This document shows, in pieces, positions 3,181 to 21,768 of a stretch of DNA of 64,000 bases; within the stretch, counting starts at the first letter, position 1; each line of letters begins with the position of its first letter. The notes beneath the pieces are model-generated. The model had not been told where the DNA came from. It saw only the letters and a program-made list of their open reading frames with translations, and made no database searches. A program made the position numbers and the translations under genes. The stretch covers positions 169,693 through 233,692 of the forward strand of contig PAPV01000013.1 of the NCBI GenBank assembly GCA_002709075.1. The letters are read 5' to 3'. The stretch is from Rhodospirillaceae bacterium. GTDB lineage: Bacteria > Pseudomonadota > Alphaproteobacteria > MPNO01 > UBA2964.

Positions 3181-3381
3181 ATGGAGTGCTTTATGATAAT
3201 TGAGGAAGATAACGAGCCGAAGCCAAGCAATGTTTTCACCCCGCTTGTGCTGGACACGATGTCAATTGATCAACTTAAAAACTATATTCGAGTTCTAAAA
3301 GAAGAAATGCGTCGAGTGCAATGCGAAATATCAAAAAAATCTACTTTAATGCAGGAGGCTGAGTCTCTGTTTAAAAGTTAA
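3181..3381 (+). CDS. DUF1192 domain-containing protein
   Basis: 66-aa ORF, acidic N-terminus followed by a short coiled-coil (DQLKNYIRVLKEEMRRVQCEI) as in alphaproteobacterial DUF1192. An alternative ATG at 3193 has a better GGAG spacing. Confidence 0.5.
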   Translation: MECFMIIEEDNEPKPSNVFTPLVLDTMSIDQLKNYIRVLKEEMRRVQCEISKKSTLMQEAESLFKS

Positions 3382-3650: not shown

Positions 3651-4055
3651 CTTTTCCTCCAAAAACAAATGAGCTTATACAGCGAATACTTTAGATTATG
3701 CAAGAGCTTGATGCGGATTTAAAAATCAGAAATTAAGAACTTTCATTAGAACATTCATATACTTAAACTTCCATAGGTTCCCTAGTTACCAAAAAAAAAT
3801 CATAATATTTAGTTATTGGTTTCAAATTTCGATGCTAAGATCCTTGTTTGATAAAATTGTAATTCCATTAATCACATCCTAATCCAAGAAAATCTGACGA
3901 TTACAAAAGTGCACTCCCAGTTATTTAACCCTCATTAATGGTATTTTTTATAATAGAAACAGAGGATTTGAAAACTTTTCTAGATTTTCTTCTACCTGTT
4001 GAGTAATTGCGATTACATATTTTTGAGTTTGTATTTTACAAACATTCCTAGCGTG

Positions 4056-5393
4056 CTAACGACTAGTTAGCTTTAATTCAATTCGCCGATTTCGTTTGCG
4101 CGAATCCATGGTTGTTGTTTTATCGATTGGGTGAAACTCCCCGTACCCAGCTGCAACTAGTCGTTTCGCAGGTAGTCCGTTTGCAATAAGCAATTTAACA
4201 ACTGATATCGCTCTAGCAGTTGACAATTCCCAATTAGACGGAAATTTCTCAGTATTAATTGGAAGACGATCTGTATGTCCGTCAACTTGAAGTACCCAAT
4301 CAATGTTTGAGGGAATTTGTTCAGAAATTTTTAATAGGGTTTGAGCGAGTTTTACGATTTTTAAACGCCCAGAGTCCCTGATTTCTGATGATGCAGAGGC
4401 AAATAGCACTTCAGATTGGAAAATAAACCGGTCACCTGAAATTCGAATATCTTGCCGCGTTCCAATAATATCTCTTAATTTTCCAAAAAATTCAGATCTA
4501 TATCGGGAGAGTTCCTGCACTTTACTTGCGAGTGCTGCATTTAGCTTTTTTCCTAAATTGGTAATTTGTATTTTCTGTTTTATTGAGTTTGCTTCAGAGG
4601 ATTGCAGAAGTTTAGAAATTATTTCCAGTCTTTGTTTTAAAGCTGATATTTGACGGTTTAGCAAATTGATTTGAGTTTTTGACTGGTCTGATAATTCTTT
4701 TTCTTTTCGAAGGTATTTTTCTATTACAGAATTTTCTTTGGTAATTCTCTCCAAAAGTACTTGTGTTTCCTTTGCTTTCTTTTTAGCACTTGATGTGAGT
4801 TCAACCTGCTTGGAAAGTCGAACGCGCAAAGACCTACTTTTGTTTTTTAGGTCATCAATCAATGTGCTCTGGCTTAACGCCTCCTTTTTTAAAACACGCT
4901 GAGTTTGTTTTAACGAAGCGACATCTCCGCCCAGAATTTCTAATTTTTTTATTTGTGTTTTAATTTTAGCTTGATCTGCTTCAATGTCCTTAAATGCATT
5001 GGCGAGGTCAATTGAAGCATCAGCTACCTCTTTTTGGGATTGAAGAAGCGTTTCACGTAGTTCTTTATTTTGGTTTAATGCCGTGGACAAACTACTGCCC
5101 AACTCATCTCTGGCATTTTTAGATTTTTCGAGATCAGAAATTAGACCCGCTATTTGTTTATTCAACATATCGTTGTTGTTTTTTTCTATCGCAAATAATT
5201 TAGAAATTTCTGCTAGCTTCTGGTTTAATTGGCTTAATGCCTTGTCTCGTCCGAGTAGCATGTCCGAAAGGAAATTTTGGCCTATTGTGAAAACCATTAG
5301 TAAAAATATAGTTATTATTAGCAGAGCTGAAATTGCATCAACAAACCCAGGCCATATATTCGGTATTGATCGGCGTCTGTTACGAGTCTGCAT
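4056..5393 (-). CDS. MotB/OmpA-family protein with a long coiled-coil linker (stator-like peptidoglycan-binding subunit)
   Basis: N-terminal basic stretch plus single TM (NIWPGFVDAISALLIITIFLLMVF, conserved Asp as in the MotB plug/TM). About 270 aa of heptad-rich Q/K/E/L sequence. C-terminal OmpA/MotB domain (DGHTDRLP...NWELSTARA...NRRIELKL). Confidence 0.75.
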   Translation of the reverse strand: MQTRNRRRSIPNIWPGFVDAISALLIITIFLLMVFTIGQNFLSDMLLGRDKALSQLNQKLAEISKLFAIEKNNNDMLNKQIAGLISDLEKSKNARDELGSSLSTALNQNKELRETLLQSQKEVADASIDLANAFKDIEADQAKIKTQIKKLEILGGDVASLKQTQRVLKKEALSQSTLIDDLKNKSRSLRVRLSKQVELTSSAKKKAKETQVLLERITKENSVIEKYLRKEKELSDQSKTQINLLNRQISALKQRLEIISKLLQSSEANSIKQKIQITNLGKKLNAALASKVQELSRYRSEFFGKLRDIIGTRQDIRISGDRFIFQSEVLFASASSEIRDSGRLKIVKLAQTLLKISEQIPSNIDWVLQVDGHTDRLPINTEKFPSNWELSTARAISVVKLLIANGLPAKRLVAAGYGEFHPIDKTTTMDSRKRNRRIELKLTSR

Positions 5394-5411
5394 TAAATTA
5401 CAGCCTTACAT

Positions 5412-6566
5412 TTATTGACTGCCGCTTCTCTCCGCAGCGGCTGCAATGGTGCGTGAAAGGACGCGAATTTCATCGCGTAATTCTGAAATTGTTTCAGACC
5501 TGCCCTGGGCCAATTCCTTCGACAAGCGGCTTAAGTGCATATCTATATTCTTAACACCAGTCAGCATGTCATTAAATTTTCTGGTTTGCGAAACAGTATT
5601 TTCATTAATTTTTTGTATTAACGGTTTTAATTCGATATGTGTATTAGAAATATTTGTAAGCTCGCTTCTTTCAGCCCTAATTTCTTCCGTAAATACCCCG
5701 ATCACTTCGGTAAGTTTTATTAGATTTTGATCGGCAGAAATTCTAGTACTTTCAGTGTGCCCCAGCGTCCGTTGGAGTTTCTCCAAACTATCTGCTGTTT
5801 GCCCCAGTAGCGCCTCAACATAGGCAGGAATGCTGGCATCTTCATTACGCACATTAATAGAGCCAACAGATCGACGCGTTTGACATGCTAACCAATTTTC
5901 AATGTTATTGTAAAAATTATTTTGTGCTTGCCCAAATTGTAGTTCTAAAAAACCTAATATTAATGAACCAGCCAGACCAAAAAGCGAGGAACTAAAAGCA
6001 ATACTCATCCCTGCCAATGGAGCCTGTAATCCTTTTTTAAGGTCGCTAAAAACATTATTAAAATTACCGTCACCTACACTGAGACCAGCAATTACGCTGC
6101 CAACGGAGTCAATTGTTTCTAACAACCCCCAAAAAGTACCTAAAAGCCCTAAAAAGATCAGCAAACCTATCAGATAACGCGATAGATCCCTGGATTCCTC
6201 CAAACGGGCATTTAATCCGTCGAGTAATGATCTTTGAGTTGATGCCGATAATGAGGTTTCTGCCCCTTTCTCGCCTAGCACAGACGCGATAGGTGCAAGT
6301 AGATGAGGGGTGTTTTGTTTGTGTATCGAAGAATTTCCTTCGGATCTATATTTCTGTAACCAATTAGTTTCTTGCATTAATCGATAGGTTTGACGAAAAA
6401 TATGTATGGCACCAAGAACCAATATTCCGAGAATAAGGCCATTTAGCGAGGGACTTGCTTGGAAAAAATTCCAAATTGTTGACGATAGGAAGCCAACCGC
6501 CATAAAAATTATCAAAAGAAAAAGGATCATTCGAATAAGATAATGCAGCGGATTTTTCATTCCCAT
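5412..6566 (-). CDS. MotA/TolQ/ExbB proton-channel family protein with a C-terminal coiled-coil tail
   Basis: Four predicted TM helices (two N-terminal, two central). Family motif LGLLGTFWGLLETI in TM3. About 180-aa charged coiled-coil C-terminus. TAATG-proximal junction with the downstream MotB-like gene. Confidence 0.7.
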   Translation of the reverse strand: MGMKNPLHYLIRMILFLLIIFMAVGFLSSTIWNFFQASPSLNGLILGILVLGAIHIFRQTYRLMQETNWLQKYRSEGNSSIHKQNTPHLLAPIASVLGEKGAETSLSASTQRSLLDGLNARLEESRDLSRYLIGLLIFLGLLGTFWGLLETIDSVGSVIAGLSVGDGNFNNVFSDLKKGLQAPLAGMSIAFSSSLFGLAGSLILGFLELQFGQAQNNFYNNIENWLACQTRRSVGSINVRNEDASIPAYVEALLGQTADSLEKLQRTLGHTESTRISADQNLIKLTEVIGVFTEEIRAERSELTNISNTHIELKPLIQKINENTVSQTRKFNDMLTGVKNIDMHLSRLSKELAQGRSETISELRDEIRVLSRTIAAAAERSGSQ

Positions 6567-6623
6567 TTCACTCGACAGTCATCTATATTATGTTTCGTGT
6601 TCTTCGCTTATTGAACTCAACCA

Positions 6624-7712
6624 TCAGCGTTTCTTTAATAAAAGATCAACACGATTGGCTTTACCCCCATTCACCCGGGAGCCAAGAGCCCGCACATCAA
6701 TGCGAGTACTTCTAATGCCGGCACCAATCAGGCGAGAACGGACAGCAAGTGCGCGAGATAGGGATAGCCGCCTCGCTTGACTTTCGGACTTTCCATCGAT
6801 GCTTGCGTAGGCCATAAGCTGAATTCTAAGTGTGGGATCGGAATTTAGTTTTTTAGAAACTTCTTTTAAGGACAACTCGCTATCTGTTTCAATTTTAGCG
6901 GATCCGACAGCAAATTTAATTTGCCTAATGCTCTCAGTCTTCGAAATACCTGGTTCCAATGCTGCTACAGCAGCAGAGGTTTTTTTGTTAGGAATTTTCG
7001 ACACCGGCATGCTGGAAAACTTTGAAAGATTTTTTTTCTGTTTGTCTACAATTGGGGCATTTGGAACCCGAGGGGCAGCGGGCCCTGTAGTGGTCGCTGT
7101 ATTTTTTATCTCTTGCTTGCGGCGTACTTTTTTGACTCGGGATGTGTCAGTCGACAAGATTTTGTTTAATTTGGAAACGGATATCGATGCTTTTGTCTTT
7201 TGTTGGGGAAGCTTGGAACGAGAAGGCGTCTTTTTCGTAGCAGAAAATTTTGAAGACTGGGAAACTTTTTTTCTAGATATGCGTTTTTTCTTACTCGTTG
7301 GCGGACTTAACAAAGACAAGTCCTGCTTTTTTTTTGTTGAGGTAAATCCGATCTGACCAGCAGGCGGAACAAAGCGCCCGTTGCGTATTATAGGAAATCT
7401 TGGAGCTCTCGGTATTTTTTTAAAGGAGGGTTGATAAGTATTGGATATAGATAATTGTGTAGTCCCGCTCTGAACAGAGTTCCTCAGAGTTTTGTTTGCA
7501 CAAACATTACTAATATGCCTAGAAGCTGCTTTTCCTAACAAGGTTGAGGGAACATTGGGCGCAGTCCCAAGGTTTTCTAAAACACAATAATCAACCGATA
7601 CACTCTGTGCTATAACATTGGTTTTTGGAAACATAAAACCAACAGTTAGTATAAAAAAATACAACATTATTATAACTCTAGTAGAATTTCCTTTATTTTT
7701 GATTGCCCGCAT
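6624..7712 (-). CDS. Secreted lysine-rich protein with degenerate OmpA-like C-terminal domain
   Basis: Signal peptide (K-rich n-region, hydrophobic core, VIAQS). Long K/S/T/P-rich low-complexity linker. C-terminal LS.SRALAVRSRLIGAGI...NRVDLLL resembles an OmpA-like fold but lacks the GHTD motif. Start at ATG 7712 with GAGGGG RBS (ORF track extends to 7808). Confidence 0.55.
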   Translation of the reverse strand: MRAIKNKGNSTRVIIMLYFFILTVGFMFPKTNVIAQSVSVDYCVLENLGTAPNVPSTLLGKAASRHISNVCANKTLRNSVQSGTTQLSISNTYQPSFKKIPRAPRFPIIRNGRFVPPAGQIGFTSTKKKQDLSLLSPPTSKKKRISRKKVSQSSKFSATKKTPSRSKLPQQKTKASISVSKLNKILSTDTSRVKKVRRKQEIKNTATTTGPAAPRVPNAPIVDKQKKNLSKFSSMPVSKIPNKKTSAAVAALEPGISKTESIRQIKFAVGSAKIETDSELSLKEVSKKLNSDPTLRIQLMAYASIDGKSESQARRLSLSRALAVRSRLIGAGIRSTRIDVRALGSRVNGGKANRVDLLLKKR

Positions 7713-7823
7713 ATGTAAAATCCCCTCAATTAGTTTGGGGTGAATACAATTTGATCCAACCCCTTGGCAGGTATTTTCCCAACAATAGCGCAGCAGCCGT
7801 CTTCTCACAACAAAATTGAGTGT

Positions 7824-8674: not shown

Positions 8675-9241
8675 TTATTCCTTTGCTCTTTCAACGTATG
8701 AGCAGTCACTTGTGCTAACGACAATTTTTGTTCCCGTCTCTACATGGGGTGGCACCATAACCCTGATACCATTCTCTAGGATGGCTGGTTTATAAGATGA
8801 AGACGCAGTTTGACCTTTCACCACAGCATCCGCTTCTGCTACTGTTAAAATAACCGAGGCCGGAGGTGAGAAACTGACCACGGTGCCTTCAACTGTATCA
8901 ACTGATACTTCCATTCCATCATTTATAAAAGGCTTAGCTTCTCCTGCCATATCCAGATTCACTGTAAACTGTTCATAGGTTTCTGTGTCCATTAAGGTTA
9001 CTAAATCATCTTCTATAAAAAGCACGGTGCAAGTTTTTTCCTCTGTCATAAGTTTTTCGACAGTTTCTTGTGTTCTAAATCTCACATTGGTTTTAATTCC
9101 CGTACTCACGTCACGCATATCAATCGCTATGAAAGCATTGCCTTTACCTGGTAAAATAAGATCATATTTTAAAACACTGTAGCGCTTTCCTTCGTGCTCA
9201 ATTACATGATTAGGGCGAAGACTGTTCGCATTTACTTTCAT
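8675..9241 (-). CDS. efp: Elongation factor P
   Basis: 188 aa; full-length EF-P similarity; modification loop LPGKGNA carrying the conserved lysine. Confidence 0.95.
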   Translation of the reverse strand: MKVNANSLRPNHVIEHEGKRYSVLKYDLILPGKGNAFIAIDMRDVSTGIKTNVRFRTQETVEKLMTEEKTCTVLFIEDDLVTLMDTETYEQFTVNLDMAGEAKPFINDGMEVSVDTVEGTVVSFSPPASVILTVAEADAVVKGQTASSSYKPAILENGIRVMVPPHVETGTKIVVSTSDCSYVERAKE

Positions 9242-9285
9242 TTGAATTTTTCCGAATTTACTTTGGTCAAATCATAGCATTACCG

Positions 9286-10362
9286 TCAATTTGGTTCAAT
9301 CTCATCGAAATATTTGTGTTTTTTGCCTGAAATATCCTCTGCAATCCACTCTCCTTCAGATTTGGATTCTATCCAACAGTGTCCGGCTGGAACTTTTCCA
9401 TGTCCACCTGGAATATCAAGCACATAAACCGGTTGCGCAATACCTGATAATCGGCGACGCAACCATTTCATTAATTTACGACCGCTGGACAATGTGGTTC
9501 TAAAATGTGAAGTACCCTTTGCCAAATCGCCGTGGTGCAGGTAATAGGGTTTAACACGATTTTCAATAAGGGTTCGAAAAAGATTTTCTAAATCTTTTGG
9601 TGTATCGTTAACACCTTTCAGTAACACAGTTTGGCTAAGCATCGGGATTCCATTATCAATAAGTTTTGCGATGGCAACACTTGCTTTTGAGTCTAATTCA
9701 TCAGCGTGATTGGAATGCAGAACAAGCCAGATGGGTTTTTTAGTTTTCAATGCATTTATCATTTCGTTATCAATACGAATGGGATCGAGTGCAGGAACTC
9801 GACTATGAATGCGTATCGTTCGCACATGTGGAATCTTATTAAGCCGAATTAGTATTTTTGACAGACGGGAAGGAGATAGAATCAAAGGGTCTCCCCCTGT
9901 GAGTATCACCTCCCAAATATCAGGATTTTCTTCAATATAGGAAAAAGCGGTATTGAGTTTTTCATCTGTTAACAAACCGTCTCCAACACTATGCCTTCTA
10001 AAGCAAAACCGGCAATATACCGGACAAGCGAGAACTGGCATTAGTAAAACTCTGTCGGGATATCTATGAATGATTCCGGATACTGGTGAGTGTTTGCGAT
10101 CGCCGATGGGATCTGGAAACTCATTTTCCATTAAGGTGTTTTCTGACGGGTTTGGTACAAACTGCCTTATCAGTGGGTCGTTTGTATTTCGTCCTTGTAG
10201 ACGCGATGCTAAATAGGCTGGGATGCCAATTGGCAGTGCTAGTGCTGCTTCGGTACAAGCAGGCTCGTCAGCCTTTTTAATTAGGTCAGCTGTAAGCAGA
10301 CCATTAGTGTTGGCAATTCGTTTCCTACGCCTACTATGGACAATATTTCTTACAATGCTCAT
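9286..10362 (-). CDS. epmB: EF-P beta-lysylation protein, lysine 2,3-aminomutase family (radical SAM)
   Basis: CPVYCRFCFRR radical-SAM KamA-type cysteine motif; adjacent to efp. Confidence 0.85.
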   Translation of the reverse strand: MSIVRNIVHSRRRKRIANTNGLLTADLIKKADEPACTEAALALPIGIPAYLASRLQGRNTNDPLIRQFVPNPSENTLMENEFPDPIGDRKHSPVSGIIHRYPDRVLLMPVLACPVYCRFCFRRHSVGDGLLTDEKLNTAFSYIEENPDIWEVILTGGDPLILSPSRLSKILIRLNKIPHVRTIRIHSRVPALDPIRIDNEMINALKTKKPIWLVLHSNHADELDSKASVAIAKLIDNGIPMLSQTVLLKGVNDTPKDLENLFRTLIENRVKPYYLHHGDLAKGTSHFRTTLSSGRKLMKWLRRRLSGIAQPVYVLDIPGGHGKVPAGHCWIESKSEGEWIAEDISGKKHKYFDEIEPN

Positions 10363-10394
10363 TTTATGCTATTCGAAGTTATTGGAACTAAGTT

Positions 10395-11459
10395 ATGAAT
10401 GACAGCAACCAAAAATTAGCGCAATCCCCTTGGTGGGATAGCGACTTAGTTGCCCACAAGCTTTCTGGTCTGAAGAACCGAAATATTATTTCTGCAGCAT
10501 TGCGTGAATGGTTTATAGAACATGAATTTACTGAAGTGGAAACTTCTTATTTACAGCTATCCCCGGGTCTTGAACCTCACCTGACTGCATTTGAAACTAA
10601 ATTTATAGAGCCATTTGAGGAAGATGGTAAAACTTTGTTTCTCCACACTTCGCCTGAATATGCGATGAAAAAGCTTCTGGTTGGTGGAATGGATAAAATA
10701 TTTCAGTTTGCACGTTGTTTTCGAAATTGTGAACGCTCGGCTATACATCATCCAGAATTTACAATGTTAGAATGGTATCAGACGTCTGAGAGTTTTTTGG
10801 AGGGTGCCCTGAGCGCAGAAAAATTGATTAAAATAGCAGCTAACACTGTAGGTGTTGATACTATTCAACGAAATGAAAAAAATTGTGATTTAACAAAGGA
10901 ATTCTGCTGGTTGACCGTTCAACATGCATTTGACTTATATGCAGCTATTGATTTGCGCGCGACTCTTGAAGATCCTCTATACCCTAATGCTGTTTTGTTC
11001 GAACGTTTGGCTGTTGAGGCAGGAGTGAGGGTTGCAGAGGATGATGATTGGACTGCAATTTTTGATAGAATTTTTTTGGAAAAAATTGAACCAAATCTTG
11101 GATTAGAAGTTCCCACAATCCTATACAATTGGCCTCTCCCTTTGGCCGCTTTGGCTAAACCGTTGAAACATGATTACTGTTTTTGCGAACGGTTTGAAAT
11201 TTATGTGGCGGGAATTGAACTTGCCAATGGCTTCGGAGAGCTAACAGATGCCAGGGAGCAGCGACGTCGTTTTGAAGCCGAACAAAATATTAAACGTAAG
11301 ATGGCCATTAAACCATACCCAATAGATGAAGAATTCCTAACAGCACTTGAAATCGGTTTGCCGGAGTCCGCTGGAGTAGCTATGGGTTTTGATCGTTTGG
11401 TAATGCTATTAACAGGAGCAGAAGAAATTCAAGATGTAATATGGTGCCCAATGAAGTAA
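10395..11459 (+). CDS. epmA: EF-P--(R)-beta-lysine ligase (LysRS class II paralog GenX/PoxA)
   Basis: Class II aaRS catalytic-core motifs (FRNCERSAIHHPEFTMLEWY; GFGELTDAREQRRRFE), no anticodon-binding domain, divergent from epmB-efp. Confidence 0.85.
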   Translation: MNDSNQKLAQSPWWDSDLVAHKLSGLKNRNIISAALREWFIEHEFTEVETSYLQLSPGLEPHLTAFETKFIEPFEEDGKTLFLHTSPEYAMKKLLVGGMDKIFQFARCFRNCERSAIHHPEFTMLEWYQTSESFLEGALSAEKLIKIAANTVGVDTIQRNEKNCDLTKEFCWLTVQHAFDLYAAIDLRATLEDPLYPNAVLFERLAVEAGVRVAEDDDWTAIFDRIFLEKIEPNLGLEVPTILYNWPLPLAALAKPLKHDYCFCERFEIYVAGIELANGFGELTDAREQRRRFEAEQNIKRKMAIKPYPIDEEFLTALEIGLPESAGVAMGFDRLVMLLTGAEEIQDVIWCPMK

Positions 11460-19723: not shown

Positions 19724-20440
19724 ATGGAAAAAGAAGTGTTGTCCTCTGCAATATTATCAGGATCGGTTTCTAATGATATGTCAGTTTGGGGATTATTTCT
19801 TCAGGCTGATATGGTAGTGAAGGTGGTGTTAATTCTTCTGATCATCGCATCGTTGTGGAGTTGGGCTATTATTTTTGAGAAGACTTTAAGGCTTAGAAAA
19901 TTATGGTCGCGAGCTGATTCATTTGAAGAAGTATTTTGGTCTGGTGGCTCTCTTGATGATCTTTTTGATCGTACGTCAAAACGCCCAGCCGACCCAATGT
20001 CTTCCATTTTTAATGCTGCGATGAGAGAATGGCGAAGATCTTCTTCCCGTGCAATCACCGATAATGCGGGACTTGCACAGCGCATAGAGCGGGTGATGTA
20101 TGTTACCCTTGGTAGGGAGATGGATAATGCTGAAAAGCATATGACTTTCCTGGCGTCGGTTGGGTCAACCGCTCCATTCATTGGTTTATTTGGAACGGTT
20201 TGGGGAATAATGGATAGTTTTCAGGCAATCGCTATGACTAAAGACACCTCTCTCGCTGTAGTTGCACCGGGTATAGCTGAGGCTTTATTTGCCACAGCGC
20301 TTGGTCTTGTGGCTGCTATCCCAGCTGTTCTTGCGTATAATAAATTCTCCAATGAATTTGGACGTTATTCTGCGCGGTTAGAAGCATTTTCGAGCGAGTT
20401 TGGTGCTATTATTTCCCGTCAGCTAGAAGAAAACACGTAA
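19724..20440 (+). CDS. tolQ: Tol-Pal system protein TolQ
   Basis: Three TM segments, GLFGTVWGIMDSF motif. Confidence 0.9.
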   Translation: MEKEVLSSAILSGSVSNDMSVWGLFLQADMVVKVVLILLIIASLWSWAIIFEKTLRLRKLWSRADSFEEVFWSGGSLDDLFDRTSKRPADPMSSIFNAAMREWRRSSSRAITDNAGLAQRIERVMYVTLGREMDNAEKHMTFLASVGSTAPFIGLFGTVWGIMDSFQAIAMTKDTSLAVVAPGIAEALFATALGLVAAIPAVLAYNKFSNEFGRYSARLEAFSSEFGAIISRQLEENT

Positions 20441-20442
20441 CG

Positions 20443-20895
20443 ATGGCATTTGTTCTTCCACCAGAAAATTCTCGTGCAGTAAGTTCAAGACGTCGCAAAA
20501 GGCCGCCTATGAGCGAAATAAATGTTACGCCTTTTGTTGATGTCATGCTGGTGCTTCTGATAGTTTTTATGGTCACAGCACCTCTCTTGACAGTAGGTGT
20601 ACCAGTCGATCTGCCCACAAGTTCGGCAAAACAGATTGGGGGCAATGATGAGCCATTGGTGGTAACTGTAAATAGTGATGGTAAAATTTTCTTACAGGAT
20701 ACTAGCCTTCGAGTCGATCAACTGATTCCTCGGCTTTCTGCAATCATGGAAAATAGGAAGAACACACGCATTTTTCTTCGTGGGGATAAAAGGATTTCTT
20801 ATGGTAAGATCATGGTTGTTATGGGTGCCCTCAATCAGGCGGGATTTCGACGCGTAGCGCTTATAACAGAAACTAAAGTACCCGTTTCTCGTTAA
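20443..20895 (+). CDS. tolR: Tol-Pal system protein TolR
   Basis: SEINVTPFVDVMLVLLIVFMV ExbD/TolR N-terminal TM motif. Confidence 0.9.
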   Translation: MAFVLPPENSRAVSSRRRKRPPMSEINVTPFVDVMLVLLIVFMVTAPLLTVGVPVDLPTSSAKQIGGNDEPLVVTVNSDGKIFLQDTSLRVDQLIPRLSAIMENRKNTRIFLRGDKRISYGKIMVVMGALNQAGFRRVALITETKVPVSR

Positions 20896-20916: not shown

Positions 20917-21768
20917 ATGCATCGAGCGTTAGTTTATTCAATAACTTTTCATTCGGTGGTTGTTTTCATCGCATGGATTGGTGTTCCTGCACTTTTAAGT
21001 CCACCGCAAGTTATTTCAAACAATATTCCAGTAGAATTAGTATCTATGAGTGATATAAAACCGCCCAAAACTCGACCAAAATCAAACCCGGCAATTAAAC
21101 AAAAACGTGTGATGCCTCAAATAAAAAAAACGGCTTCGATCCAATCTTCATCAAGCGAAATCAAAATTCCCAGTCCCCCGCCAAAAAAACCTAAATTGAA
21201 GCCCAAATTAAAAACTGAAATAAAGCGTAAGAAATTTCGAAGAGCACCGCCTCAACCAAAACGAAAACCAAAGGTAGATAGCCGACCTAGCAAGAAGGTC
21301 AAAAAGAGAGAGGATAGACTTGCATCAATATTGAAAAATCTTGCATTAGCAAAGAAGAATGCGCAAAATTCACGGCAGTCAAAGCAAATTTCTAAACCTG
21401 AAATCAGTCATAGCAATAAAAAAAACGTATTTTCCATAGATAGAAGAAGACAAACTACGGAGCTGGCATTAAAAGTAAAGGATCAACTGACTCCGTGTTG
21501 GAATATACCCGCTGGTGCAAAGGGGTTACAAAATATGAAGGTTATATTGCGTATTAGGCTGAATCCAGATGGATCATTGCGTGCGGCACCAAATGTGTTG
21601 GATCGTTCTAGAATGACAAAAGATTCTTTCTTCAGGGCCGTTGCTGAGAGTGCGGTACGCTCCTTGCAGCACCCACGCTGTATGCCACTTCAGTTGCCTT
21701 TGACCCAATATGATTTGTGGAAGGATATCACCTTTAACTTTGATCCAAGTGAAGCTCTCGGCCAATAG
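20917..21768 (+). CDS. tolA: Tol-Pal system protein TolA (lysine/proline-rich linker)
   Basis: N-terminal TM, K/P-rich low-complexity central region, TolA/TonB-like C-terminal domain; operon position. Confidence 0.7.

What the first reader, a model, noticed from the sequence alone, without database searches (positions are those of the whole stretch)
4056..7808. Three-gene stator-like operon: MotA/TolQ/ExbB-family channel with coiled-coil tail, MotB-like protein with a ~270-aa coiled-coil linker, and a lysine-rich OmpA-like protein
Tol-Pal (tolQR at 19.7 kb) is present elsewhere in the window, so this is an additional proton-channel/stator pair and not the TolQR copy. The A subunit has a 2+2 TM topology with a short cytoplasmic loop and a C-terminal coiled-coil tail. 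That arrangement resembles ZorA-type and other 5:2 rotary motors rather than canonical TolQ (3 TM) or flagellar MotA (long TM2-TM3 loop). The B subunit keeps the MotB plug/TM with the conserved Asp and a canonical PG-binding OmpA domain. Between them it inserts about 270 residues of heptad-rich sequence, far longer than any flagellar MotB linker. A third co-transcribed gene encodes a secreted K-rich protein with a degenerate OmpA fold. Position after suhB and apparent co-orientation suggest a conserved envelope function, but the domain architecture matches no well-described stator system.
Basis: partly seen in the sequence, partly recalled or inferred. Interest (0 to 1): 0.75.

Follow-up and report, generated by a model that had tools for sequence, protein, structure and literature searches.

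The report
Uncharacterised wall-anchored proton motor of Alphaproteobacteria
These genes encode a non-flagellar, cell-wall-anchored relative of the flagellar, Tol and Zorya ion motors that is conserved at the same chromosomal spot across Alphaproteobacteria, has an unusually long coiled-coil stalk and a coiled-coil tail, and has no mechanistic study that I could find.

Summary
The three minus-strand genes are real. A (6566-5412) has four membrane helices, an ExbB/TolQ/ZorA-type fold and a 140-residue heptad tail. B (5393-4056) has a MotB/TolR-type membrane helix with an invariant Asp, about 270 residues of unbroken heptads and a MotB-type peptidoglycan-binding domain. C starts at ATG 7712, not 7808. 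It is a secreted protein with a conserved N-terminal motif, a low-complexity linker and a degenerate OmpA-like domain.

The pair is not Tol: tolQRB-pal-cpoB is confirmed at 19.7-24.7 kb. It is not flagellar: no MotA model matches, no flagellar genes lie nearby, and the same pair sits between suhB and rpmE in Sinorhizobium meliloti. It is not Zorya: scores fall below the cut-off, it is syntenic and core, and none was found in viral contigs. A and B are adjacent in 78 of 80 related genomes, and at least 596 species carry A. C is present in 47 of 65.

The host is a Rhodospirillaceae MAG, not Rhizobiales.

The only experiments I found concern probable orthologues called motA/motB in non-flagellated Komagataeibacter hansenii. 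Overexpression there gave elongated, chained cells and polar GFP foci.

Most likely this is a peptidoglycan-anchored 5:2 proton motor with an envelope or cell-separation role. It is a new variant of a known kind.

The parts
5412..6566 (-). Gene A: 384-aa channel (rotor) subunit of the MotA/ExbB/TolQ/ZorA superfamily
5946..6542 (-). A residues 9-207: four membrane helices and the short cytoplasmic loop. Includes the invariant GLLGTFWG (Thr144) and AFSSSLFGL (Ser192/194) channel motifs.
   Evidence: Hydropathy. pLDDT 80-93. Invariant columns. hhalign to the window's TolQ TM2/TM3.
5415..5846 (-). A residues 241-384: cytoplasmic coiled-coil tail of about 21 nm if it is one helix, ending in the conserved GRxExVSELRxEIRVLSRT motif
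   Evidence: Single heptad register over 241-366. a/d hydrophobicity 0.68/0.55 in the family alignment. Conserved C-terminal columns. AlphaFold confidence here is low (pLDDT about 50).
4056..5393 (-). Gene B: 445-aa MotB-like anchor (stator) subunit, starting 18 nt after the stop codon of A
   Evidence: ORF. NCBIfam NF006543 scores 401.7 bits against a 305 cut-off. A-B adjacency in 78 of 80 loci, mostly 3-30 nt apart.
5283..5354 (-). B residues 14-37: single membrane helix with the invariant WPGFVDA motif. Asp19 (nt 5337-5339) is the presumed proton-carrying residue.
   Evidence: Invariant columns. Aligns to the TolR FVD motif.
4464..5282 (-). B residues 38-310: periplasmic coiled coil of about 270 residues (about 40 nm if straight). 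Both ends are conserved; the middle varies in length by heptads.
   Evidence: AlphaFold helices 14-172 and 179-310. One register over 38-294. a/d pattern. Homologue lengths fall in two residue classes modulo 7 in 102 of 120 cases. Indels lie in the middle of the alignment.
4065..4445 (-). B residues 317-443: MotB-type OmpA-like peptidoglycan-binding domain. DGHTD, SNWELSxARA and NRRIE are invariant, and the family-specific C-terminus is IE[LF]KLTxR.
   Evidence: Pfam OmpA E=6e-17. Foldseek hits MotS, MotB, PomB and TagL at TM about 0.8. Invariant columns. C-terminal motif in 119 of 120 homologues.
6624..7712 (-). Gene C: 362-aa secreted accessory protein. The ORF extends to a GTG at 7808, but the start is ATG 7712.
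   Evidence: GAGGGG ribosome-binding site before the ATG. The exact 362-aa protein is in the collection (P0438). Present upstream of A in 47 of 65 loci, and overlaps A by 4 nt in some.
7608..7712 (-). C signal peptide, predicted cleavage after VIA
   Evidence: Hydrophobic segment. Orthologues show the same AxA-Q type site.
7548..7604 (-). C mature N-terminal motif SVSVDYCVLENLGTAPNVP. Family consensus is SVxVDLSVLDxLGPxP. It is a candidate docking peptide.
   Evidence: Recurs directly after the signal peptide in most C orthologues.
6915..7547 (-). C low-complexity linker: Lys/Ser/Thr-rich here, Pro/Ala-rich in GC-rich relatives
   Evidence: Composition.
6675..6914 (-). C degenerate OmpA-like domain. 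ARRLSLxRA is kept, but the canonical Thr-Asp and the Asn before LSxxRA are replaced.
   Evidence: Pfam OmpA E=3e-10, covering 2-82 of 98. Alignment of 53 orthologues.

Best explanation
A and B form a non-flagellar, peptidoglycan-anchored, proton-driven motor of the 5:2 class (A5B2). It is a vertically inherited housekeeping system of Alphaproteobacteria.

Shown here:
- A has the ExbB/TolQ/ZorA fold. It carries the invariant Thr/Ser pair in the two inner helices.
- B has the invariant membrane Asp and an intact MotB-type peptidoglycan-binding domain.
- The two genes are almost always adjacent and sit at a conserved housekeeping locus.
- Both long helical regions are true heptad coiled coils.

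Inferred:
- Two B helices sit inside a ring of five A subunits.
- The B dimer continues from the membrane into a parallel coiled coil of about 40 nm, whose far end binds the cell wall.
- Proton flow through Asp19 then turns the A ring, and its five 140-residue cytoplasmic tails, around the fixed B axle. This is the ZorAB logic with a short tail and a very long stalk.
- C is a periplasmic accessory. It would dock through its conserved N-terminal peptide and reach the wall or outer membrane with its extended linker and modified OmpA-like domain.

The biological output is not shown. My best guess is a Tol-like role in envelope organisation or cell separation, possibly at the poles. That guess rests on probable orthologues in non-flagellated Komagataeibacter hansenii. 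Overexpression there gives elongated, chained cells. Disruption changes cellulose architecture. GFP fusions are polar.
For: Fold and channel residues:
- Fold of A.
- Invariant residues of A. Invariant residues of B.
- Alignment of A to the window's TolQ and of B to its TolR.
- B exceeds the NCBIfam NF006543 cut-off.
- The B peptidoglycan-binding domain is closest to stator B-subunit domains.

Coiled coils:
- Continuous registers and a/d profiles.
- Length of B varies in heptad steps.

Conservation:
- At least 596 species genomes carry A.
- 500 clusters at 50% identity score E<1e-30.
- A-B are adjacent in 78 of 80 loci, and suhB is upstream in 54 of 65.
- S. meliloti has the same suhB-A-B-ABC-rpmE order, with A 40% and B 46% identical.
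- No relatives were found in viral contigs.

Phenotypes:
- PMC6570709, PMC6315621 and PMC7347698.
- Link to this family: the cloning primers translate to a MotB ending EFRLTDR* and starting MARRSR. The ending fits the C-terminus pattern shared by 119 of 120 B homologues, and the start resembles the family's Arg-rich N-terminus.
Against: - Stoichiometry, rotation and proton dependence were not tested. No multimer prediction was available.
- Pfam MotA_ExbB is sub-threshold, and a sequence profile finds no solved stator. Membership therefore rests on fold and short motifs.
- The tail of the A model has low confidence (pLDDT about 50), and a poorly conserved, low-confidence segment at 233-247 separates it from the motor. 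Rigid torque transmission is doubtful.
- A 40-nm rod is far longer than the membrane-to-wall gap of about 9 nm quoted for E. coli (PMC11946911). B length also varies from about 314 to 661 aa between species. The geometry must therefore involve a hinge, a tilt, or passage through the wall. The invariant Gly48-Arg49 is a candidate hinge. AlphaFold places a break at 173-178, which could also mean a hairpin.
- The Komagataeibacter data are overexpression and materials phenotypes. The MotB-GFP fusion puts GFP in the periplasm, and polar foci of overexpressed fusions are a common artefact.
- Orthology of the Komagataeibacter genes is inferred from termini, sizes and annotation, not from full sequences.
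Confidence: 0.6

Rival explanations
1. Periplasmic-output machine, like Tol, Ton or GldLM. The A ring is held still or merely harvests protons. The work is delivered outward, through the long B coiled coil and/or through C, to the wall or outer membrane. Possible tasks are tensioning or positioning the envelope at division sites or poles.
For: - The most elaborate and most conserved extra parts are periplasmic: a 270-residue coil with conserved ends, and C with a conserved docking-like peptide, a Pro/Ala-rich extended linker like those of TonB/TolA, and an OmpA-like domain.
- The A model has a low-confidence, poorly conserved segment between motor and tail.
- The cell-chaining phenotype resembles Tol defects (PMC6315621).
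Against: - B keeps every canonical peptidoglycan-binding residue, which marks an anchored stator, not a rotor.
- C is missing in many genomes that keep A-B, including S. meliloti.
- Coil length varies several-fold, which is hard to reconcile with a fixed trans-envelope reach.
- The length and C-terminal motif of the A tail are tightly conserved, which implies a cytoplasmic partner.
Confidence: 0.25
2. Passive structural tether. The pair no longer works as a motor. It simply links the inner membrane to the wall through a long coiled coil, acting as a spacer or scaffold.
For: - Long coiled coil plus OmpA-like anchor.
- Pfam motor model below threshold.
Against: - The proton-path residues are invariant across families only 40-55% identical overall: B Asp19, A Thr144, A Ser192/194, and the GLLGTFWG helix. 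That is not expected without ion-coupled function.
- A pure spacer would not vary from about 170 to 450 coil residues between species.
Confidence: 0.1
3. It is the organism's flagellar stator, as NCBI names A 'flagellar motor protein MotA' and JGI names B 'chemotaxis protein MotB'.
For: - Source annotations.
- Four-helix topology as in MotA.
- The B domain is closest to MotS/MotB/PomB domains, and NCBIfam MotD scores E=4.5e-32 but far below its cut-off.
Against: - No MotA model hits A.
- The cytoplasmic loop is only about 70 aa, leaving little room for a MotA-type rotor-contacting domain.
- No flagellar genes lie in the part of the window examined or in the locus flanks examined.
- S. meliloti has this pair at suhB/rpmE with no flagellar genes nearby. 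By established knowledge its flagellar motA, motB and motC lie in the flagellar regulon.
- Probable orthologues exist in K. hansenii, which has no flagellar or pilus genes (PMC6315621, PMC6570709).
Confidence: 0.03
4. It is a Zorya-type (ZorAB) anti-phage system or a remnant of one.
For: - The best HMM hits for A are ZorA models: PADLOC ZorA3 E=4e-12 and NCBIfam ZorA_2 E=1.4e-4. ZorB3 hits B at E=1e-23.
- Coiled-coil cytoplasmic tail.
Against: - NCBIfam ZorA_2 scores 21 bits against a cut-off of 100.
- The PADLOC matches cover only the two inner helices, or only the OmpA domain.
- No ZorC, ZorD or ZorE-like genes are nearby.
- The locus is core, syntenic and housekeeping across an entire class, not a patchy defence island.
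- None was found in viral contigs.
- ZorA has 3 membrane helices and a tail of about 500 aa, and ZorB has no linker (PMC11946911). Here there are 4 helices, a 140-aa tail and a 270-aa linker.
Confidence: 0.03

Closest known systems
ZorAB, the motor of the Zorya anti-phage system (PDB 8QYD, 8VVN; PMC11946911)
   Same: - Best HMM similarity.
- Thr/Ser selectivity pair plus the B Asp.
- B anchored by a pre-formed peptidoglycan-binding domain that follows the membrane helix through continuous helix.
- A carries a C-terminal coiled-coil tail in the cytoplasm.
   Different: - 4 rather than 3 membrane helices.
- Tail about 140 aa rather than about 500 aa, and preceded by a low-confidence, poorly conserved segment.
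- B has a 270-aa coiled coil, whereas ZorB has none.
- No ZorC/D effectors.
- Core syntenic housekeeping gene pair rather than a mobile defence island.
- Below the NCBIfam ZorA cut-off.
TolQ-TolR(-TolA)/Pal
   Same: - The inner-helix motifs align (GLLGTFWG against GLFGTVWG), and FVD of B aligns to TolR.
- An OmpA-like partner protein is encoded alongside.
- Cell chaining on perturbation in Komagataeibacter resembles Tol phenotypes.
   Different: - A genuine Tol-Pal operon is present separately in the window.
- TolQ has 3 helices and no tail.
- TolR has no coiled coil and no OmpA domain.
- C is not a lipoprotein and lacks the Pal binding residues.
- There is no TolA or TolB analogue.
Flagellar stators MotAB, PomAB and MotPS
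   Same: - Four-helix topology of A.
- One-helix B with Asp.
- MotB-type peptidoglycan-binding domain (TM about 0.8 to MotS/MotB/PomB).
- Gene order A then B.
   Different: - The A cytoplasmic loop is only about 70 aa, leaving little room for a MotA-type rotor-contacting domain.
- No MotA HMM match.
- No Pfam MotB_plug match.
- Linker of 270 heptad residues.
- Not linked to flagellar genes.
- Present where flagella are absent.
Komagataeibacter hansenii 'MotA/MotB' (Jacek et al. 2018, 2019; PMC6315621, PMC6570709)
   Same: - Probable orthologues: 348-aa four-helix A and 321-aa B with an OmpA-like domain, in adjacent genes.
- Best BLAST partners carry the same annotations as this family.
- The primer-derived ends of MotB (MARRSR......EFRLTDR*) fit the family: the C-terminus matches its pattern and the start resembles its Arg-rich N-terminus.
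- These are the only experimental data I found.
   Different: - Shorter coil.
- Studied for cellulose material properties, with no mechanistic, structural or stoichiometric work.
GldLM/PorLM and SiiAB (other non-flagellar 5:2 motors)
   Same: - The B-type subunit continues from the membrane as a long rigid periplasmic dimer (GldM).
- SiiA has a MotB-like peptidoglycan-binding domain.
   Different: - GldM is the rotating output and has no wall anchor.
- Neither has a coiled-coil stalk or an A-subunit tail.
- Different taxa and gene contexts.
- Not compared by computation here; this rests on my own knowledge and PMC12204202.

Membership tests
MotA/ExbB/TolQ/ZorA superfamily (A subunit of 5:2 motors) | Characteristic helical fold with two inner membrane helices | tested here: met
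   [not shown]
MotA/ExbB/TolQ/ZorA superfamily (A subunit of 5:2 motors) | Pfam PF01618 above gathering score | tested here: not met
   19.7 bits against a 22.9 cut-off, E=7e-4. Some homologues pass, e.g. P0189 at 28.1 bits. This is a remote subfamily, not a non-member.
MotA/ExbB/TolQ/ZorA superfamily (A subunit of 5:2 motors) | Conserved polar Thr/Ser in the inner helices facing the B-subunit Asp | tested here: met
   Thr144, Ser192 and Ser194 are invariant in 54 sequences. They align to the TolQ GT and TA(L) positions.
MotA/ExbB/TolQ/ZorA superfamily (A subunit of 5:2 motors) | A5B2 stoichiometry and ion-driven rotation | not testable with these tools
   Only single-chain prediction was available.
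MotB/ExbD/TolR/ZorB-type B subunit | Single N-terminal membrane helix with the essential Asp, encoded directly downstream of A | tested here: met
   Invariant WPGFVDA. Aligns to TolR FVD. Adjacent to A in 78 of 80 loci.
OmpA-like peptidoglycan-binding domain (B) | Pfam PF00691 above cut-off, with the diaminopimelate-binding Asp and Arg | tested here: met
   62.3 bits against 27.2. DGHTD, LSxARA and NRRIE are invariant. Actual binding to peptidoglycan was not tested.
NCBIfam NF006543 (PRK09039.1-2, 'peptidoglycan-binding protein') | Score above the curated equivalog cut-off | tested here: met
   401.7 bits against 305. Four sister models, PRK09039.1-1, -3, -4 and -5, match strongly but below their cut-offs.
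Flagellar MotAB | Match to MotA family models, and a large cytoplasmic rotor-contacting domain between helices 2 and 3 | tested here: not met
   [not shown]
Flagellar MotAB | Genomic or functional association with flagellar genes | tested here: not met
   Housekeeping neighbours in the window, in 80 loci and in S. meliloti. Probable orthologues occur in non-flagellated K. hansenii (PMC6570709).
Zorya ZorAB | Score above the ZorA family cut-off | tested here: not met
   NF033915 scores 21 bits against 100. The PADLOC hits are partial, about 80 residues.
Zorya ZorAB | Co-encoded ZorC/D (or E, F, G) effectors, and patchy defence-island distribution | tested here: not met
   No such neighbours. 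PADLOC gives nothing for C. Synteny is conserved class-wide. None in viral contigs.
Tol-Pal TolQR | Match to the TolQ/TolR equivalogs, within a tolQRAB-pal operon | tested here: not met
   A and B do not hit TIGR02796 or TIGR02801. The true TolQ and TolR at 19724-20895 do.

The most novel reading that the evidence does not exclude
This would be a housekeeping counterpart of Zorya that is universal in Alphaproteobacteria. It would be a wall-anchored rotary motor whose short pentameric coiled-coil tail turns in the cytoplasm, at cell poles or division sites. Rotation would report or enforce the state of the envelope: wall integrity, wall distance or wall growth, sensed through the 25-65 nm heptad-quantised stalk and the accessory protein C. 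That would make it a fourth physiological use of 5:2 motors, beside motility, Ton/Tol force transduction and phage defence. It might also be the kind of ancestor from which Zorya was recruited.
Probability: 0.25. Interest if true: 0.85.

Novelty: new variant of a known kind. Interest (0 to 1): 0.62.

Why it matters
Ion-driven 5:2 motors are known to power flagella, Ton/Tol force transduction, gliding and type IX secretion, SPI-4 secretion, and Zorya defence. This pair is another such motor, and it differs from those in several ways.

- It appears to be core to a whole bacterial class. That class includes tractable organisms such as Sinorhizobium, where the B orthologue in strain 1021 is CAC47355.1/Q92JX6. 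It also occurs in Azospirillum and in industrial Komagataeibacter.
- Its combination of parts has not been described together: a ZorA-like tail and a 40-nm periplasmic coiled coil that changes length only in whole heptads.
- I found no mechanistic study.
- It is routinely mis-annotated as a flagellar MotA/MotB.

Working out its output would add a new function to the motor family. It could also reveal an alphaproteobacterial envelope or polarity mechanism. It would explain the cell-shape and cellulose phenotypes already exploited in Komagataeibacter engineering. The question is directly testable by deletion, Asp-to-Asn mutation, tail truncation and cryo-EM.

Tried and rejected
- A sequence profile of A against all PDB sequences found only generic coiled coils and no stator. 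Membership therefore had to come from fold comparison.
- Rfam and promoter/terminator scans of 3.0-9.5 kb gave nothing useful.
- I looked for informative domain fusions in unusually long A homologues (557-614 aa). They show only longer helical tails and one weak HAMP hint.
- Extra Pfam domains precomputed for B homologues (PF24161 and others) were not reproduced in a fresh scan, which gave only generic coiled-coil matches below their cut-offs.
- Genes downstream of B in other genomes are not conserved parts of the system: an ABC exporter on the opposite strand, an MFS transporter, a small heat-shock protein.
- Cluster look-up of distant representatives gave no named model-organism proteins.
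Reviews and phylogenies of 5:2 motors (PMC9389320 was not opened; PMC12505986; PMC12204202), the Brucella envelope review and the S. meliloti Tol/Rgs paper do not mention this family. Two searches failed on syntax, and two were too broad to help.
- The AlphaFold database fold library was unavailable.
- The hairpin reading of the B coil, based on the AlphaFold break at 173-178, is considered less likely. The heptad register is continuous across the break and indels come in single heptads. It is not excluded.
- The mod-7 signal is weaker in the 80 genome loci, where I had to guess start codons.

Full report
**What is in the sequence**

Three co-oriented ORFs lie on the minus strand between suhB (8633-7824) and rpmE (3668-3426). 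They are C (7808/7712-6624), A (6566-5412) and B (5393-4056). A and B are 18 nt apart. C ends 57 nt before A.

The surroundings are housekeeping genes. On one side are a quinone oxidoreductase and L31. On the other are suhB, efp, an epmB-like radical-SAM gene, epmA, thiE and fructose-bisphosphate aldolase. Further on come ruvB and a complete tolQ-tolR-(tolA)-tolB-pal-cpoB operon at 19.7-24.7 kb. Every recognisable Tol member scores above its NCBIfam equivalog cut-off.

An identical A protein is recorded from a 'Rhodospirillaceae bacterium' metagenome-assembled genome.

**Subunit A**

- *Topology.* Hydropathy gives four helices in a 2+2 arrangement, a loop of about 70 residues between helices 2 and 3, and a C-terminal extension of 175 residues.
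- *Sequence models.* They barely see the family. Pfam MotA_ExbB scores 19.7 bits against a 22.9 cut-off. The only NCBIfam hit is ZorA_2 at 21 bits against 100. PADLOC ZorA models match at up to E=4e-12, but mostly only over residues 128-207. A family profile finds no stator among PDB sequences.
- *Channel residues.* hhalign against the window's own TolQ lines up GLLGTFWG with GLFGTVWG and AFSSSLFGL with ALFATALGL. Thr144, Ser192 and Ser194 are invariant in 54 homologues. They correspond to the Thr147/Ser184 filter described for ZorA (PMC11946911).
- *Tail.* It keeps one heptad register from residue 241 to 366. The family-wide a/d hydrophobicity is 0.68/0.55. It ends in a strongly conserved GRxExVSELRxEIRVLSRT motif. 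Total A length is nearly constant, 378-387 aa among the nearer homologues.

**Subunit B**

- *Membrane helix.* The N-terminus is Arg-rich, followed by one membrane helix with the invariant WPGFVDA motif. Asp19 aligns with the TolR aspartate.
- *Coiled coil.* The helix runs straight into about 270 residues of heptads with a single register over 38-294 and a clean a/d profile. AlphaFold gives helices 14-172 and 179-310.
- *Conservation along the coil.* Both ends are conserved. The middle is variable and carries the indels.
- *Length quantisation.* The lengths of 120 homologues fall almost entirely into two residue classes modulo 7 (102 of 120). The coil therefore grows and shrinks by whole heptads. 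That fits a continuous parallel coiled coil better than a hairpin.
- *Wall-binding domain.* The C-terminal domain is a canonical OmpA-like domain (E=6e-17). DGHTD, SNWELSxARA and NRRIE are invariant. The nearest solved structures are the periplasmic domains of MotS, MotB, PomB and the T6SS anchor TagL (TM about 0.8).
- *Database family.* B exceeds the curated cut-off of NCBIfam NF006543, 'peptidoglycan-binding protein'.
- *Not shown.* Pfam MotB_plug is not detected.

**Protein C**

The start is ATG 7712, which has a GAGGGG ribosome-binding site. The exact 362-aa product is in the protein collection.

Orthologues share four features:
- a signal peptide;
- a conserved motif directly after the cleavage site, consensus SVxVDLSVLDxLGPxP, here SVSVDYCVLENLGTAPNVP;
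- a low-complexity linker, Pro/Ala-rich in GC-rich genomes and Lys/Ser-rich in this AT-rich one;
- an OmpA-like domain that keeps ARRLSLxRA but has lost the canonical Thr-Asp and Asn.

'Degenerate OmpA-like' is therefore a fair description. The Lys-richness is compositional, not a family trait.

**Distribution and context**

- A has more than 8000 detectable homologues. It has 500 clusters at 50% identity with E<1e-30.
- In the 80 best loci, all Rhodospirillales-type or Acetobacteraceae apart from a few apparently mis-binned contigs, B follows A in 78. The gap is mostly 3-30 nt.
- suhB is upstream in 54 of 65 loci, efp in 46 of 61, and C in 47 of 65. rpmE is downstream in 30 of 59.
- Genes between B and rpmE in other genomes are unrelated: an ABC exporter on the other strand, an MFS transporter, a small heat-shock protein.
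- A chromosome-sized Sinorhizobium meliloti record shows the order suhB - A (368 aa) - B (342 aa) - ABC - rpmE, with thiE nearby and no flagellar genes. A is 40% identical (E=3e-62) and B 46% identical. The B orthologue in strain 1021 is CAC47355.1/Q92JX6, annotated 'hypothetical protein signal peptide'.
- No relative was found in viral contigs.

The pair is therefore ancient, vertically inherited and core. It is not a defence island.

**Literature**

Reviews and phylogenies of 5:2 motors do not describe this family.

The only experiments I found are from Jacek and co-workers on 'motA' (348 aa, four helices) and 'motB' (321 aa, OmpA-like) of Komagataeibacter hansenii. This Acetobacteraceae species has no flagellar or pilus genes.
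- Overexpression gave elongated cells in chains or filaments and about three-fold greater colony spreading.
- Cellulose from overexpressing strains was looser.
- MotA-GFP and MotB-GFP appeared at one or both poles.
- Disruption gave denser cellulose.

The sources are PMC6315621, PMC6570709 and PMC7347698.

I could not fetch those protein sequences. The published cloning primers, however, translate to a MotB that starts MARRSR and ends EFRLTDR-stop. In this family 119 of 120 B homologues end in IE[LF][KR]LTx[RK], and the family N-terminus is similarly Arg-rich. The authors' best BLAST partners also carry the same annotations as the Sinorhizobium orthologues. I therefore treat the Komagataeibacter genes as probable orthologues.

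Two caveats apply. The phenotypes come from overexpression. A C-terminal GFP on B would sit in the periplasm, so the polar foci need confirmation.

**Mechanism**

*Shown:*
- the superfamily fold of A;
- the invariant ion-path residues;
- an intact wall anchor on B;
- tight genetic coupling of A and B;
- two real coiled coils;
- a core, non-flagellar, non-Tol, non-Zorya context.

*Inferred:*
- an A5B2 assembly;
- proton flow through Asp19;
- B2 fixed to peptidoglycan;
- the A ring and its five tails rotating in the membrane and cytoplasm, as in ZorAB.

*Geometry is the main puzzle.* The coil would be about 40 nm if straight. Across species the range is roughly 25 to over 60 nm. The membrane-to-wall gap quoted for E. 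coli is about 9 nm. The stalk must therefore hinge, tilt, or pass through the wall. The invariant Gly48-Arg49 just outside the membrane is a candidate hinge. Whatever the geometry, the variable middle behaves as a spacer between two conserved functional ends.

*Output.* It is unknown. The conserved tail length and end motif argue for a cytoplasmic partner. The conserved periplasmic parts and C argue for an envelope task. The Komagataeibacter phenotypes point to cell separation and the poles.

I give 0.6 to the motor explanation with an envelope or cell-separation role. I give 0.25 to a variant in which the work is delivered outward. A passive tether gets 0.1. The flagellar and Zorya readings get about 0.03 each.

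**Verdict**

This is a member of an existing but mechanistically uncharacterised database family. It is widely mis-annotated as flagellar MotA/MotB. Its architecture combines four-helix A topology, a short ZorA-like tail, a heptad-quantised long stalk on a MotB-like anchor, and an optional secreted OmpA-like partner. I did not find that combination described in the motor literature I could search. I rate it a new variant of a known kind, with interest 0.62.

Noticed in passing
window 8675-11459: efp lies next to an epmB-like lysine-2,3-aminomutase-type gene (TIGR03822, above cut-off) and a divergent epmA (EF-P lysine aminoacylase). This is a complete-looking EF-P beta-lysylation set. The same trio recurs beside suhB in several related loci, e.g. 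L003, L024, L034 and L047.
   Followed up: partly
window 3669-4055: The spacer between B and rpmE is 387 bp, AT-rich (about 33% GC), and has no ORF or Rfam match. In S. meliloti and about 20 related loci this slot holds an ABC exporter gene on the opposite strand. In other loci it holds an MFS transporter or a small heat-shock protein. The window's lineage seems to have lost that gene.
   Followed up: partly
B homologues P0271-P0390; loci L001-L080: Lengths of B homologues are quantised in steps of seven residues (438, 445, 452... 522, and a parallel series offset by one). This is an unusually clean example of coiled-coil length evolving by whole heptads. The range across species is about 314-661 aa.
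   Followed up: partly
window 7548-7604 and C orthologues in L007-L066: A short conserved peptide, SVxVDLSVLDxLGPxP, lies at the mature N-terminus of C, followed by a long disordered linker. The arrangement resembles the docking 'boxes' of the Ton/Tol systems. Its partner is unknown.
   Followed up: no
P0164 (614 aa), P0121, P0122, P0178, P0232: Some A homologues are 557-614 aa long. One has a weak C-terminal HAMP match (E=0.002). These could be longer tails, fusions or gene-calling artefacts.
   Followed up: partly
L011, L030, L056; L081: Contigs carrying the typical alphaproteobacterial efp-suhB-C-A-B-rpmE locus are labelled Gammaproteobacteria, Patescibacteria and Mycobacteriaceae MAGs, which probably reflects mis-binning. 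The PLSDB record CP090106.1 is labelled 'plasmid pSymB', but it is a 3.7-Mb record that carries chromosomal housekeeping genes.
   Followed up: no
window 3181-3381 (+): A 66-aa ORF between the quinone oxidoreductase and rpmE has tblastn matches (42-52% identity) near the same genes in L010 and L041. It may be a real small gene.
   Followed up: no
window 20917-21768: The ORF in the TolA position of the tol operon matches no NCBIfam model at E<1e-5. It is presumably a divergent TolA.
   Followed up: no
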